A stretch of DNA of 64,000 bases from Ruditapes philippinarum. Lineage: Eukaryota. Of this stretch, positions 6,001 through 27,000 are shown piece by piece (positions within the stretch are counted from its first letter, which is position 1; each line of letters starts with the position of its first letter). The stretch lies in assembly GCF_026571515.1 (NCBI RefSeq), contig NW_026866246.1:124001-188000 (forward strand), read 5' to 3'. The position numbers were made by a program.

Positions 6001-9000
6001 AGCTCGGGCTTTAAATACGTCCACGTGCTTCTGCAGATATATATGCACGAAAAGTAAGGGGACATAAACCCTAAAACAATGTATCAATAGATTTACTGAA
6101 TTACTCCCGAAGAAAATCTAATTATGTAAAACTATAAGTTTACAAATTGTATAAATCACAAATATTCAGTTCTCAAGTAAGATTGAAATCCTACAACTTA
6201 CCGTCAATTTATTTCTGGCCTGAGGTCCTATGGGTGGAGTTAATGGATCAATGGCCACGGAGAAGACGATCCAGTAAGTTAATAGTACCTCCTTTTTCTT
6301 TGATCCGCATGATAGAGTGGTATCGCCATAGTAAGGTGAAGCTGTGCATTGGAACAAATCAGATAAGGCCCTAAAATAGTATAATAAAACAATTTAACTC
6401 GTGCTATGGTAAATAATTTGTCTTATTACAAAATATTTAATGTAGTTGCAAAGATAAATACCTTTTGTATTGTTCTCGAGCCATTGATAGAGTTTGAGCA
6501 TAAATTTTCTTTATCTCGGACATCATGCCGTGTGTTTTACGAAAACAATCGTGTATAGACTTTAACACCTCATTCTCGTAAGACTGAAAACATGTCATGT
6601 TTAACATGTAATCTTCGTTCAAAACTGAAAATATATAATGTATTTAAGTTACAAGTAAATAATGTTAACATTTAAATGAAGAGCAAAAACAAGTTCTAAA
6701 AATGTGAGTTTCAAATTATGAATATATTTGGAATACAAAAAGTCGTGGTTGTCGGTGACTGTAATTGAAATAAAATGTTAAATAAAAATCACAATGCATA
6801 TGTATATGGTTCATATACTGTCCAAAAAGAGCCTTCCTATAAGAAGGGTTGTTATATTGTGAATGTAGAAAAAGTATATATGTGCTCCATTTACAAGTGC
6901 ATACGTACCACCACGGATCCAAGAGGATGGTTGATTATTTTCACAAAGAAAAGAAACCTTTTCTCTTACAACATCATTGATTGTTTCTGTAAGCTCTGGA
7001 CAGACTGATACAATATCTCTTGTACATCTTGTATAAGCCTCGTTAATTTGCTCGTCACTGAAAGATTAGGATCAAAGCACTAAAAGTACCGAAAATCAGA
7101 GAGAATTAGTCGGAGTAAAAATATTTAGGTGTTTGTAAGGCAGTGGCCAGTTGCAAAAAGTAAAATAAAACTGTATTTGGAAAGTTTATTTGAGGCGAGG
7201 TGATCAAGGTGAGGCACATTCCAAAAAGATTTGTCTTAAACATTTCATACTCGGAAGAACTGTCTTCACAAGAAATCGCAAACATTTGGCTTGTTGTAAA
7301 CATATTTATAAAGAGTACTTTTCATTTACTTTTAATTGCATAAATAATATTTTGTTTTGCCTAAGTTTGATAGATAACAATAAGATTTGAAAAACAATTC
7401 GATTGAGTTTCAACGGTCAATGTTATATTTAAAACTTTGATTTTGACCTTAACCCTATTGGACACAAAAGTAGTCCCAAGCTGAATAGCCAAATTTCCAT
7501 ATAAGCTTGCTATATACCAAGTTTGATCTACCGCTCTCCAGCCTGTCCACATTTGCCAACCTATTATGAAGGACTTTTGAAATTGAAATCCTGGTTAACC
7601 TGATCATAATATAGATGCTTTCATAAAATACATGCATATCAAGAATGGTGAATACGAATAATCGGATAGAAAAAATCCGCATTTGGTTAGTGACAAATAT
7701 GGTAACATACATGTATTTTTTATAATTACATGTAACAACACAGTGAGCTGCTCAATTACAATTGCAGGATTTGTCCATTTAAACTTGTACACACGAATGA
7801 ACTATCTAATTTAATTGTTTTATTCAATGTTGCTAAAAAGTGTATATCTTTTACTTATCGGTAGCTTTTTTTAAAGCGTTTTATGTTATTTCGGTCTGCC
7901 CAAATTAAGCTACAAAATTTTGATATGCTAACAAAATAATAAGTATATGCTGAGATTCCATAATATCATGCAAAACTCAAATGTTATTTTCTTCTGTTGC
8001 TTTCATTTTCAGTAATCATTGTTTTAAGTTGATTACTGACTTTTTTCTGTTTGTTTTGTTTGTTTTTATTTATTTATTTATTCTTAAAAGAAAGTTTTGA
8101 TCAATTTAATGTGTCATCTTCAAAATACACGCTATCTGCCACAATGCACTTTTGCAGTCTTTCAACCCATATTTCATACTCATCATCTGAATTCTGATAT
8201 ATTGCTGAGCCAACGGCCTTCCTGGAATGGTACATTTTTCCAGACAGGTAGTATTCTAGATTTGGGGAAAAGAAAATGTCAGAGGGAGAAAGATGATGTG
8301 GGATGTTGGTTTCATTCTCCTACGCCAAAACCCAATAACACTGTACGACTTATGGGCGGATGCGTTAACATATAAGAAACGGGTGTACTTGAGTCCTGTC
8401 TTGGGACGATAAAGTTTGTAGCAGTAATTTTATTCGCAAAGAACATCATTTCTTTAGAAAGTACTTTCGGTCATTTTTTTCCTTTATGTAGCAGATTTTT
8501 CAGAACCATTATTTCACTTTGCAATGTACTGGCGTTTGCATTTGTGGTTCCAAAAATTAACACTTTCGTTTGAGTTCAAATATGTAAACGCAAGTCGCAT
8601 TACCAGAAATCACATTGTCAAAAGCTTTCTTGTTATATTTTTGACACATCTTCCGGTTGTGCTAATGACAAGTTTGTCATACGTGTTATCTGCCTCATTG
8701 AAAATCGAGCATCCTTTTAAAAATATTGCGATTTTGTCTGTGTTACGGTAAACATTATTCAAGTAAGAACTACTGGAACCACTCAACAATTAAAAAAAGC
8801 CAAATAGAAGTAACTAAAATTAGCACAAACACAACAATAATATCGTGTTGAAGAATAATATTACACTTAAAACATGTCATGTCGTATCCCCACCACATCC
8901 CCCATAAAAAAAGAAGAGGTAAAATTTCGGGGAAAATCTATGGAATGAAACAGGCAAACAGTGCTGGACGCAAATATGTGATTTAAAATACATTCTAGGT

Positions 9001-24000: not shown

Positions 24001-27000
24001 AATGGTAGCGAAATTTCAGAGCCTAATGCTGTTAATTGCAATTGCCTAAAGTAGTCCACTTATTTGAAGTGGTTACTTCCCTTTACATGTACACTAACGC
24101 CGAAAAATTCAGGGGAGATCAATGCGTAAAGATTGTCAAATGACAGGCGCATTAATTTTGAAGCAAAGTAGTTCCCGAATGGTCGAATATTTCTAAAAGT
24201 ATTTCATTCTTTATAGATATACATGCTTGCAGTAAGCTCCATGCTTATTTACATCTGTGTTAAACAACAGGTTTAGCGTCGAAATAATAAGAGTTACAAA
24301 CCCTAATTTAGAATAATATGGTTTTCTTCAAGCCATTACTACAGAACTTCATCGTGGCCGAGGGGTTTGCACGCTTGCTTATGAATCGAGAAGTCTGGAG
24401 TTCAAATCCCAGTTGAGTCAAATCAGTTTTTTAAAAAATCTTTTAAGTCAAATAAACATTGAATTGACTATCAGTGTTGCAATTAGTCTTATAGCTAATT
24501 TACTACAGTTAAAACACTGGAAAGCATTGGTGGCATTATACAAAAACAAATTGGTTTATAATCTCACAACCTTCACCATTCTGACATTCTGAGACCCAAA
24601 CAAATTCAGCGCCTTCTGTGCTTTGATTAATGATAGATTTATAATGTCGTATATATTCAGTAAACTTGAAGTATACATAATATCCAGTGGCTGGGTAAAC
24701 ATAATTTGACAATTATGTATTGACATTTATAAATAAAATATGCTATATGCAAAATTTCTTTGAAAAAAGTGACTATAACAGTGTCAGAAATTAACAGCCA
24801 TTAAACAATGATCGTATATATTTATTCAGAAATACTTTAGATCAATGACTGAGTGCTTATAATCGCCGTCTTCAAATCACTTGCGCCTCACAGTTTTGGT
24901 TAGAATCCCATCACGGATTGTTACATATTAGGAAGGTATTCGGTTAGCTAAGTTCTATTAAGATGCACACTTGTGCTTGAAATAATTTAAAACCCGAGGT
25001 CTGCCTTCTCGTGTAAAAAGGAGTCGCTATATGAACTTTACAATAAAATCCAATAAAACAAACGACATGCACAATTTTAATGATATTCAGATAGTTTTTA
25101 TGGTTGCTATAGATTAAATAAAAATATGGTTTATTATTTTCTAACAGTAATCAGTATACCTGCATGTAGATGTTATTTGTGCCAGGAAAGACTCTCTTGT
25201 TATCACGGCGGATTCCGTCAATTCGGTCATAACGCTAGAGTATCCAGTGACGTTTGATGACCGGAAACATTCCACAAACTGTTTCAGTACAGTATTTATT
25301 TCATTACAGTTAGATTCCTTCACTACTTCATCTGCGCTTTCCGAATCAGCCAGTGAAAGCACGGCGGAAACAGCTAGTAGCATCACTTAAAGTAGAAATA
25401 TTTTTTCATAGATATTTAAACAATGAGAAAATTTCTTTCCTACAAAACATTTAACAAATACTGCGTATTATTTACAACCCGCGTTTGAATGTTACATGAC
25501 TTTTTAAAGTGAATTGGTACATTAGTAAAGGGTATAATGTTATACATAAAAAAGGTGTATATGGCCTTTAGTGTCAAACGTGACACCAAACAACAAAATT
25601 GCATGTACATATTGTTGGCAAGTGTGAGGAACATGATCCAAATTAAATATTTATATATAATTAATAATAAATTGTTCTAGAACACAATCTTATTATTGAT
25701 CATTTATTACATGCTTTTCGGTGGTTTATAGAAATATATCAGTGATTTAAAACTGGTAATTTCACTGTTTGAAACAGTGAAATTACCACTTTGATAATTT
25801 CACTGTTTTGAATTTAAGCCCCTTACGTTGTTTCAGTGAAATACCAGCGTGCACAGAACTGGGTACCAACTTAATGACGTGACGTCATAAATGACGTCAC
25901 GTTGAATTATTATTTGGCGCGCTTTTCATTCAGTATTAAGTTTAATGTCTTTTTAAAACGTTTCTTTGCATATAATAAAAAGAAAATTTGTTTAGTTTAG
26001 TGTAAGATCGAAATATATTTCACCTTGTGAACACCAAAAGTTCATATTTCACTCGTGGCTGCGCCACTCGTGAAATATACCTTTTGGTGCTCACTCGGTG
26101 AAATATATTCCGATCTTACACGGAACTAAACAAATATCCTCTATATAAATAATAATTCAGAACTTGTTTTTTTTCTTTTTCAAGAAATATTTTGGATATA
26201 TATCAAAATGCCGCATTTCTATAGTTTTTATTAATTTATTCAATCAATATTTACGAAAGCCTAATAGTGTCAAATGAAATAAAAAATAAAAATACAAAGG
26301 CGTTATAACGCGAATAAAGGCGTTATTACGCGAATCAAAAGGCGTAATAACGCAAATAAAGGCGTTATAACGCGAATCAAAAGGCGTAATTACGCAAATC
26401 AAAAGGCGTAATAACGCGAAAAAAGGCGTAGCAACGCAAATAAAGGCGTAGCAACGCGAATAAAGGCGTTATAACGCGAATCCAAAGGCGTAATAACGCG
26501 AATAAAGGCGTAATAACGCGAAATGAAAGGCGTAATAACGCAAATCAAAAGGCGTAGTAACGCGAATAAAGGCGTTGTAACGCGAACCAAAAGGCGTACT
26601 AACGCCAATTAAAACGAATTATAATGCCAATTTAATACCATATTTATACTAATCAAATGGCCTGGTAACGTAAGAAAGCAAACCAATATTGATCTGAATT
26701 TATTCCTCAAGATATAAACTCGTATAGAATAATATAATTTACATTTACAATAACTAACATTCCATTTGCGCAGTAATAATGCAATTTATTTGTCATAAAC
26801 TAATGAAGACTCTTTAATATTTGCCAATTTAAGGTGTCTGGGTGCCTTATAGGTCCATTGGACTGGACGTAAATACAGTTAATCTGAATTCACATGTATC
26901 ATATATTGCTTTTACACATGTCACTATAGTAAATAAATTTCTTTTCTTTTCTTATCTTATCTTATCTTATCTTATCTTATATGTGCGTCATATGTTCAAT

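What the first reader, a model, noticed from the sequence alone, without database searches (positions are those of the whole stretch)
6011..25409. Hidden tandem pair of unnamed secreted Cys-patterned glycoproteins between PIGZ and TM9SF2
Seen: two minus-strand genes with matching exon phases (2,1,2,0) and identical exon 2 and 4 lengths. Both have signal-peptide-like N-termini followed by an acidic linker. Ten cysteines are position-conserved across exons 1-4, with an 11th in the last exon of gene A. Two N-glycosylation sequons are conserved despite changed residues (NTT/NVT; NMT/NTS). The ORF track shows only disconnected fragments. Inference: the Cys spacing falls into two similar halves separated by amphipathic-looking segments, reminiscent of all-helical disulfide-rich secreted domains (DUF19/DUF1397-type). 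I cannot assign a named family, so this may be an undescribed lineage-specific secreted family (haemolymph, mucus, shell or gamete product).
Basis: partly seen in the sequence, partly recalled or inferred. Interest (0 to 1): 0.8.

Follow-up and report, generated by a model that had tools for sequence, protein, structure and literature searches.

The report
Tandem pair of secreted cysteine-rich genes
Two neighbouring, anciently duplicated genes in an AT-rich invertebrate-like genome appear to encode small secreted, sugar-decorated, disulfide-braced proteins of no family I could name; this is an ordinary kind of find in such genomes.

Summary
Two minus-strand five-exon paralogs lie at 9416..6011 (G1) and 25383..~21036 (G2). 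All eight introns are GT-AG and the phases are 2,1,2,0 in both. Exon 2 is 149 nt and exon 4 is 169 nt in both, and the split codons are identical. Ten of ten cysteines of the mature exons 1-4, and two sequons, are conserved. In all four exons pN is below pS, and only the exons still align as DNA, so these are real coding sequences. G1 has a strong signal peptide and no transmembrane segment. G2's start has shifted, leaving a marginal 12-residue signal. The last exon is uncertain in both genes. Searches were made exon by exon; the joined protein was not searched or folded. Pfam, PDB sequence profiles, the ESM Atlas, Foldseek and a prokaryote genome scan named no family. DUF19, DUF1397 and stanniocalcin were not recovered. 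The "two similar halves" idea has only weak support. My reading is a lineage-restricted secreted glycoprotein pair of modest interest.

The parts
9148..9416 (-). G1 exon 1 (269 nt). It holds the ATG at 9416, a signal-peptide-like segment of 25 residues, an acidic linker, 3 conserved Cys and the sequon NTT. The donor is GTAAAG and the intron phase is 2.
   Evidence: The best Kyte-Doolittle 19-residue window scores 2.42. An in-frame TAG lies two codons upstream of the ATG (read).
6909..7057 (-). G1 exon 2 (149 nt, 3 conserved Cys). Intron phase 1 follows it, and the donor is GTACGT.
   Evidence: It is 84% identical in protein and 135 of 149 nt identical to G2 exon 2.
6462..6624 (-). G1 exon 3 (163 nt, 2 conserved Cys, sequon NMT). 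Intron phase 2 follows it.
6202..6370 (-). G1 exon 4 (169 nt, 2 conserved Cys, a short hydrophobic stretch). The donor is GTAAGT and the phase is 0. If intron 4 is not spliced, the frame runs on 11 codons to a stop ending at 6166 and gains a Cys.
   Evidence: The best Kyte-Doolittle 19-residue window scores 1.33, below what a membrane helix usually needs.
6011..6070 (-). It has no counterpart in G2.
   Evidence: An AATAAA starts at 5701.
25160..25383 (-). G2 exon 1 (224 nt). It holds the ATG at 25383, a 12-residue hydrophobic start, an acidic linker, 3 conserved Cys and the sequon NVT. The donor is GTATAC and the phase is 2.
   Evidence: In-frame similarity to the G1 signal region continues upstream to 25419 but is cut by an in-frame stop.
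23716..23864 (-). G2 exon 2 (149 nt, 3 conserved Cys). Phase 1 follows it, and the donor is GTACGT.
21512..21677 (-). G2 exon 3 (166 nt, 2 conserved Cys, sequon NTS, plus a non-conserved NCS). Phase 2 follows it.
21216..21384 (-). G2 exon 4 (169 nt, 2 conserved Cys). The donor GTTTGT is weak. Without splicing, the frame runs on 10 codons to a stop ending at 21183 and gains a Cys.
   Evidence: An AATAAA starts at 21075.
21036..21122 (-). G2 exon 5, tentative and my own pick (87 nt, 2 Cys). It has no counterpart in G1, and it contains the AATAAA at 21075.
14283..18920 (+). This spacer content is not part of the genes. It holds two remnants of non-LTR retrotransposon-like elements (reverse transcriptase; endonuclease plus reverse transcriptase). 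Their reading frames are broken into several pieces.
1019..2911 (+). Left neighbour: a single 630-codon ORF of the Alg9-like mannosyltransferase family (GT22).
   Evidence: E 1.2e-55. No PDB relative was found at 1e-3.
59188..61421 (+). Right neighbour: two ORFs that hold exons of an EMP70/TM9SF gene. The subtype 'TM9SF2' was not tested.
   Evidence: E 2.3e-12 and 1e-18. No PDB relative was found at 1e-3.

Best explanation
G1 and G2 are an old head-to-tail duplicate pair of real protein-coding genes. Each encodes a protein of about 265-270 residues that enters the secretory pathway. The N-terminal signal peptide would be removed, leaving an acidic N-terminal stretch. A largely helical core would be braced by five intramolecular disulfides formed from the ten conserved cysteines. 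It would carry two conserved N-glycans and have no membrane anchor.

I infer a soluble extracellular binding or signalling protein rather than an enzyme. An extra C-terminal cysteine could link two chains.

Shown here: paralogy, the shared exon-intron structure, purifying selection, the conserved Cys and sequons, the hydrophobic N-terminus of G1, and the lack of a membrane-length hydrophobic segment. Inferred only: secretion, glycosylation, disulfide pairing, the helical fold beyond exon 1, and any function. G1 looks fully intact. G2 is intact in exons 1-4 but changed at both ends.
For: - **Gene structure.** 8 of 8 introns are GT-AG, the phases are 2,1,2,0 in both genes, exon 2 and exon 4 have equal lengths, and the split codons are identical.
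- **Selection.** Only the four exon blocks align as DNA between the loci. pN is below pS in 4 of 4 exons: 0.38/0.70, 0.07/0.19, 0.35/0.76 and 0.17/0.48. From the summed counts dN/dS is about 0.32.
- **Conserved residues.** 10 of 10 mature Cys are conserved, while overall identity is about 59% (136 of 232 aligned codons, my arithmetic). By my arithmetic the chance of that is about 0.005 if Cys behaved like other residues. Two sequons are kept through residue changes.
- **Secretory features.** The G1 N-terminus scores 2.42 in a Kyte-Doolittle 19-residue window and has small residues at -3 and -1 before the acidic stretch. No other 19-residue window exceeds 1.55.
- **Fold.** The mature part of exon 1 models as three helices.
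- **Not an enzyme.** No enzyme or other named domain was found exon by exon.
Against: - There is no expression or protein evidence of any kind.
- The signal peptides were judged by hydropathy and the -3/-1 rule only.
- The G2 signal-like segment is only 12 residues long. The ancestral start region upstream is cut by a stop.
- The last exon is unsure in both genes. G1 E5 and G2 E5 have no counterpart in the other gene, and the G2 intron-4 donor is weak.
- The structure models are weak (pLDDT 60.6) or useless (pLDDT 39.5).
- pN/pS between the two copies cannot show that both copies are still under constraint.
- The proposed function rests on an absence of hits, in searches limited to single exons.
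Confidence: 0.7

Rival explanations
1. Only G1 is a working gene. G2 is a decaying or already dead duplicate whose exons 1-4 have not yet picked up disabling changes.
For: - In G2 the region matching the G1 signal peptide is cut by an in-frame stop, and the usable ATG lies downstream.
- The hydrophobic start is 12 residues long, and the best Kyte-Doolittle 19-residue window scores only 0.96, against 2.42 in G1.
- The intron-4 donor is GTTTGT.
- No counterpart of G1 exon 5 is found downstream.
Against: - All four core exons are open, with canonical splice sites.
- All 10 Cys and both sequons are retained.
- Synonymous sites in E1 and E3 are saturated (pS 0.70 and 0.76). The copies are therefore old, and a dead copy would be expected to have stops by now.
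- A possible acceptor AG just upstream of the ATG leaves room for an unseen 5' exon (read; not tested).
Confidence: 0.2
2. The pair are divergent members of a family that already has a name, which single-exon searches were too weak to detect. Candidates are a stanniocalcin-like hormone, or a DUF19 or DUF1397-type protein.
For: - Stanniocalcins are secreted glycoproteins of 150-300 residues. They are recognised by ten conserved Cys with low sequence identity (13-37%) and an optional 11th Cys that makes dimers. A tandem duplication is reported in amphioxus (passages of PMC5654410).
- Here there are ten conserved Cys plus an 11th, a signal peptide and sequons.
- Exon pieces of 49-89 residues give weak searches.
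Against: - No stanniocalcin, DUF19 or DUF1397 row appeared in Pfam at E<=10 for 9 of 9 exon peptides.
- No stanniocalcin chain appeared in the 4 PDB profile searches at E<=10.
- The stretch from Cys1 to Cys10 is 175 residues here. The trimmed, partly degapped core alignment in PMC5654410 has 117 columns.
- As I recall the human stanniocalcin-1 Cys spacing, it does not fit. That is recalled, not tested.
Confidence: 0.25
3. The proteins are held at a membrane rather than released. The anchor would be the hydrophobic stretch of exon 4, or a C-terminal lipid-anchor signal in the tentative G2 last exon.
For: - Exon 4 has a conserved hydrophobic run. The best 11-residue windows score 2.16 and 2.22.
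- Its only weak Pfam rows are to membrane-protein families: TB2_DP1_HVA22 at E 0.12 and DUF4728 at E 0.048.
- The tentative G2 exon 5 ends hydrophobic, with a 19-residue window of 1.55.
Against: - The exon 4 run is only about 13 residues. Its 19-residue windows score 1.33 and 0.78, which is low for a membrane helix.
- The G1 tail is charged, not hydrophobic.
- The Pfam rows are far below their cut-offs.
Confidence: 0.1
4. These are not genes at all, but chance ORFs or two copies of a repeat.
For: No expression data exist. The exon 2 and exon 4 blocks are similar in all three frames, because they are close at the DNA level.
Against: - There are only two copies in 64 kb.
- Similarity stops within about 20-30 nt of the predicted splice sites.
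- pN is below pS in every exon.
- The phases match and the split codons are identical.
Confidence: 0.03

Closest known systems
Stanniocalcin family (Pfam Stanniocalcin; name and accession recalled). Family features are taken from passages of PMC5654410.
   Same: Both are secreted glycoproteins of 150-300 residues with a signal peptide. Both have ten conserved Cys expected to make five disulfides, an optional 11th Cys, low sequence conservation and tandem copies in some genomes.
   Different: No Pfam or PDB match was found exon by exon. The Cys1-Cys10 span is 175 residues, against a 117-column trimmed core alignment. The Cys spacing, as I recall it for the human protein, does not fit. Membership is not claimed.
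DUF19 and DUF1397-type helical, disulfide-rich secreted proteins of nematodes and insects
   Same: The general type is the same: a signal peptide, several conserved Cys, and probably helical segments (for exon 1 only).
   Different: Neither family appears among the Pfam rows at E<=10 for any of the 9 exon peptides. The one paper search on DUF1397 listed 3 insect papers, and I saw the listing only.
Lineage-restricted, tandemly duplicated secreted cysteine-rich protein genes of invertebrate genomes (a general class; my own knowledge)
   Same: The shared features are a small secreted product, a conserved Cys framework on a fast-changing background, tandem duplication, and transposon-rich spacers.
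   Different: This is a class, not a family, so it predicts no function.

Membership tests
   0 of 9 exon peptides list it at E<=10. The search was exon by exon only, and the joined protein was not searched.
   0 of 9 exon peptides list it at E<=10. The search was exon by exon only.
Stanniocalcin | A match to the family profile, or to a solved stanniocalcin chain | tested here: not met
   One search gave no row. Searches listed no stanniocalcin among 11 rows at E<=10. That the PDB holds stanniocalcin chains is my recollection.
Stanniocalcin | Ten conserved cysteines, with an optional 11th, a signal peptide and a length of 150-300 residues (PMC5654410 passages) | tested here: met
   ten conserved Cys in both genes, an 11th in G1 E5, and 269 and 264 residues; a hydrophobic N-terminus. 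The count alone does not define the family.
Stanniocalcin | The family's own pattern and spacing of the ten cysteines | tested here: inconclusive
   The Cys1-Cys10 span is 175 residues, against a 117-column degapped core alignment. The figure with the pattern is not held, and the supplements are closed.
Secretory-pathway soluble N-glycoprotein (a class) | An N-terminal signal peptide | tested here: inconclusive
   For G1 the 19-residue window scores 2.42 and the -3/-1 residues are small. For G2 there are only 12 residues and the window scores 0.96. No dedicated predictor was on hand.
Secretory-pathway soluble N-glycoprotein (a class) | No membrane-spanning segment after the signal peptide | tested here: met
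   the best 19-residue windows outside the N-termini score 1.33 (G1 E4) and 1.55 (tentative G2 E5).
Secretory-pathway soluble N-glycoprotein (a class) | Glycans and disulfides actually present | not testable with these tools
   Only the sequons and the Cys are seen.
GT22 / PIGZ (left neighbour) | A match to the Alg9-like mannosyltransferase profile | tested here: met
   E 1.2e-55, 189.8 bits against a cut-off of 23.8. The PIGZ subtype was not tested, and no PDB relative was found.
EMP70 / TM9SF (right neighbour) | A match to the EMP70 profile | tested here: met
   E 1e-18 and 2.3e-12 for two ORFs. The TM9SF2 subtype was not tested.

The most novel reading that the evidence does not exclude
The pair belongs to a protein family with no entry in the domain databases. 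It would be a two-lobed, helical, extracellular glycoprotein that arose by internal duplication of a unit of four cysteines. In each lobe, two cysteines 12-14 residues apart on one helix would be stapled to two cysteines 11-12 residues apart further on. A free C-terminal cysteine would allow dimers. It could then be a new carrier or ligand family of one invertebrate lineage.
Probability: 0.35. Interest if true: 0.45.

Novelty: new member of a known kind. Interest (0 to 1): 0.3.

Why it matters
If the genes are expressed, they add one more small secreted, disulfide-braced glycoprotein family to an invertebrate genome. They are also a clean example of a gene pair that ORF lists hide, because every exon is short. 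Such families often turn out to be lineage-specific carriers, immune factors, matrix proteins or gamete proteins, so a tissue-expression profile would quickly say which. As it stands nothing points to a surprising mechanism, and whether the family is truly unnamed is still open.

Tried and rejected
1. **A possible extra exon in intron 1.** G2 24703..24581 and G1 8274..8152 are colinear at 24% identity over 41 residues (E 0.35). I rejected it. No acceptor fits phase 2 in G2 without meeting a stop (read), and E1 joins E2 directly in phase, with the same split codon in both genes.
2. **Pfam, exon by exon.** Only four sub-threshold rows came back: DUF4728 at 0.048, INTS1_R4 at 0.096, TB2_DP1_HVA22 at 0.12 and TAPR1-like at 0.2. 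I treat all four as noise. Each appears in one paralog only, and all are at or below 14.8 bits.
3. **PDB profile searches.** There were 11 rows in all, none below E 0.11, and no chain was shared between exons.
4. **ESM Atlas.** Exon 1 gave a top score of 0.86, to unnamed arthropod clusters, which is below the 0.9 lead level. Exon 2 gave no usable hit.
5. **Structure.** The exon 1 model has pLDDT 60.6. Its Foldseek search of the PDB gave 2 rows at E about 9, which is nothing. The exon 4 model has pLDDT 39.5 and was not searched.
6. **Prokaryote genome scan with the exon 2 alignment.** 45 stretches matched a pattern and 2 passed. Both lie in contigs of 59-63% G+C labelled as bacterial. Both are anchored on the search pattern itself. 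In L001 only 1 of the 3 Cys is kept, and the other exons have no hit below E 0.09. I reject both as chance.
7. **Internal repeat.** E2 against E4 gave no signal.
8. **Paper search for four short motifs of the proteins.** 6 papers were listed, all for one motif in unrelated human or antibody contexts. I saw the listing only.
9. **RNA genes.** Rfam gave 0 matches and ARAGORN gave 0 tRNAs in the window.
10. **PDB relatives of the two neighbour genes.** None were found.

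
Full report
**The window.** It is 64,000 bases with no N and 68% A+T (43,512 of 64,000). Its content is an intron-poor GT22 mannosyltransferase ORF, EMP70/TM9SF exons, non-LTR retrotransposon ORFs and several satellites. That looks like an invertebrate genome. Nothing in it was taken for human.

**Checking the observation.**

I translated the minus strand of 20,000-25,600 in stop-to-stop pieces and compared it with 5,500-9,700. 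Four colinear blocks came out:
- 47% identity over 77 residues, E 2e-18
- 80% over 59 residues, E 2e-32
- 48% over 63 residues, E 2e-16
- 68% over 66 residues, E 2e-28

At the DNA level only these four blocks align, at 70-89% identity. The introns do not align.

- G1: 9416..9148, 7057..6909, 6624..6462, 6370..6202, 6070..6011
- G2: 25383..25160, 23864..23716, 21677..21512, 21384..21216, and a tentative 21122..21036

All 8 introns are GT..AG and the phases are 2,1,2,0 in both genes. Exon 2 is 149 nt and exon 4 is 169 nt in both. The three split codons are AGT, GTT and AGG in both. Intron lengths differ freely: 2090, 284, 91 and 131 nt in G1, against 1295, 2038, 127 and 93 nt in G2.

Ten of ten cysteines of the mature exons 1-4 are aligned, with the same spacing apart from one extra residue in one interval. 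The sequons NTT/NVT and NMT/NTS are aligned. No third copy is in the window.

**Are they coding?** Nei-Gojobori counts per exon give pN/pS of 0.38/0.70, 0.07/0.19, 0.35/0.76 and 0.17/0.48. From the summed counts dN/dS is about 0.32. Similarity falls to background within 20-30 nt of each predicted splice site. Together with the Cys framework, this is what two coding genes under purifying selection look like. It is not what a repeat or chance ORFs look like.

Exon 2 stands out. Its pS is 0.19, while exons 1 and 3 are saturated. Either a short gene-conversion tract or constraint on the exon's nucleotides could explain that. I could not tell them apart.

**The ends of the genes.**

*5' ends.*
- G1 starts at the first ATG after an in-frame TAG. 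It has a 25-residue hydrophobic leader (Kyte-Doolittle 2.42 over 19 residues) with small residues at -3 and -1. An acidic stretch follows.
- In G2 the stretch that matches the G1 leader continues in frame up to 25419 but is cut by a stop. The open frame begins at the ATG at 25383, which leaves a 12-residue hydrophobic start. That is marginal for a signal peptide.
- An AG preceded by a pyrimidine-rich run sits just upstream of that ATG. An unseen 5' exon is therefore possible. I did not test this.

*3' ends.*
- G1 exon 5 and my G2 exon 5 have no counterpart in the other gene.
- The intron-4 donor is GTAAGT in G1 but GTTTGT in G2.
- If intron 4 is not removed, both frames run on for 11 and 10 codons. 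Both tails would then carry a cysteine at matching places (ORFs 6166..6357 and 21183..21356; alignment).
- An AATAAA starts at 21075.
- So the '11th cysteine' may in fact be shared by both genes. Only transcripts can decide.

The joined protein was neither searched nor folded.
- Pfam on 9 exon peptides at E<=10 gave four sub-threshold rows and nothing else. There was no DUF19, DUF1397 or stanniocalcin row.
- Profile searches of the four exon alignments against all PDB chain sequences gave 11 rows. None was below E 0.11, and no chain recurred.
- The ESM Atlas gave 0.86 to unnamed arthropod clusters for exon 1, and nothing usable for exon 2.
- AlphaFold2 on the mature part of exon 1 gave three helices at pLDDT 60.6. 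On exon 4 it gave no fold, at pLDDT 39.5.
- Foldseek of the exon 1 model against the PDB gave two rows at E about 9.
- A scan of 185,579 prokaryote genomes with the exon 2 alignment gave two pattern-anchored chance matches in G+C-rich contigs.
- A full-text search for four short motifs found no relevant paper (listing only).

**The stanniocalcin lead.** The count of ten Cys plus an 11th, the signal peptide, the glycoprotein character and the size recall stanniocalcin. I read passages of Roch and Sherwood 2011 (PMC5654410). The family is recognised by its ten-Cys pattern at 13-37% identity, and its trimmed core alignment has 117 columns. Here Cys1 to Cys10 spans 175 residues, and no stanniocalcin row appeared in Pfam or the PDB. 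The figure with the pattern is not held, and the supplements are closed. I keep this as a low-probability rival, not as a membership.

**Two halves?** The spacing 12,34,11 in the first half resembles 14,35/36,12 in the second. Both halves also have a phase-2 intron. However, that intron lies one residue after the third Cys in the first half and eight residues before it in the second.

Profile comparison of exon 1 with exon 3 finds a 16-column motif that pairs the second Cys of each half (P 0.01, probability 4%). Shuffle tests are low for the two pairs that involve G1 exon 3 (26 and 12 of 2000). They are not low for G2 exon 3 (1106 and 609 of 2000). Exon 2 against exon 4 shows nothing. An internal duplication is possible but not shown.

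**How it most likely works.** The proteins enter the secretory pathway, lose the leader, and fold into a helix-rich core held by five disulfides. They carry two N-glycans and are released, since no 19-residue window outside the leaders reaches membrane-helix values. With no enzyme-like match, I take them for binding or signalling proteins. A C-terminal cysteine may join two chains. Only the sequence features are shown; the rest is inference.

**Surroundings.** The 11.6-kb spacer between the genes holds two plus-strand remnants of non-LTR retrotransposon-like elements, within 14283-18920.
- One carries reverse-transcriptase matches spread over three ORF pieces in at least two frames.
- The other carries endonuclease and reverse-transcriptase matches spread over at least four ORF pieces.
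- Both are only 24-28% identical to an intact 923-codon reverse-transcriptase ORF at 54786-57554.
- Rfam and ARAGORN found nothing in the window.

**What stayed unchecked.**
- There is therefore no evidence on the family's size, its taxonomic range, or synteny elsewhere.
- There are no transcript data.
- No signal-peptide predictor was on hand.
- The joined protein was left out of all searches and folds.
- The supplements of PMC5654410, which hold its alignment, could not be seen.

**Verdict.** The interpretation as an unnamed secreted Cys-patterned pair stands as far as single-exon searches go. The comparison with DUF19 and DUF1397 and the two-halves idea are not borne out. Lineage-restricted secreted cysteine-rich gene pairs are common in invertebrate genomes, so I score the interest at 0.3.

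Noticed in passing
window 6886-7071 and 23693-23878: Exon 2 is far more alike between the copies than the other exons: 135 of 149 nt identical and pS 0.19, against 0.48-0.76 elsewhere. The identity reaches about 20 nt into the flanking introns. This could be a short gene-conversion tract or nucleotide-level constraint.
   Followed up: partly
window 6166-6201 and 21183-21215: Just past the intron-4 donor, both genes stay open for 11 and 10 codons. Both run-on tails hold a cysteine at matching places. G2's donor is weak, and an AATAAA follows at 21075. An unspliced 3' end is therefore a live alternative.
   Followed up: partly
window 14283-18920 (+): Two remnants of non-LTR retrotransposon-like elements lie between the genes. 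One has reverse-transcriptase matches in three ORF pieces. The other has endonuclease plus reverse-transcriptase matches in at least four pieces.
   Followed up: partly
window 54786-57557 (+): An uninterrupted 923-codon ORF with a reverse-transcriptase domain (RVT_1, E 3.8e-27) lies upstream of the two EMP70-matching ORFs, on the same strand, probably within an intron of that gene. No endonuclease domain was listed at E<=0.01.
   Followed up: partly
window 26290-29356: Arrays of a 20-22 or 42-nt unit occur in both orientations (26290-26613, 27437-28128, 28117-28258, 28939-29356). They give rise to long spurious repeat-peptide ORFs on both strands.
   Followed up: no
window 42733-43701 and 52430-53721: Two arrays of the same satellite of about 165-166 nt have 5.8 and 7.8 copies at 86-88% matches. 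Further arrays lie at 50927-51651 (156 nt), 58657-59204 (32 nt) and 119-530 (164 nt). The unit length recalls a bivalve satellite. That is recalled only and was not tested.
   Followed up: no
window 34167-35085 (+): There are overlapping ORFs beside a (TG)n-like run. One 148-codon ORF looked transposase-like by eye, but it had no Pfam family at E<=0.01.
   Followed up: partly
L001 2001-2117; L002 2001-2042: Two G+C-rich contigs labelled as bacterial matched the exon 2 search patterns. The matches are anchored on the 8-9-residue patterns alone, and I take them for chance.
   Followed up: yes
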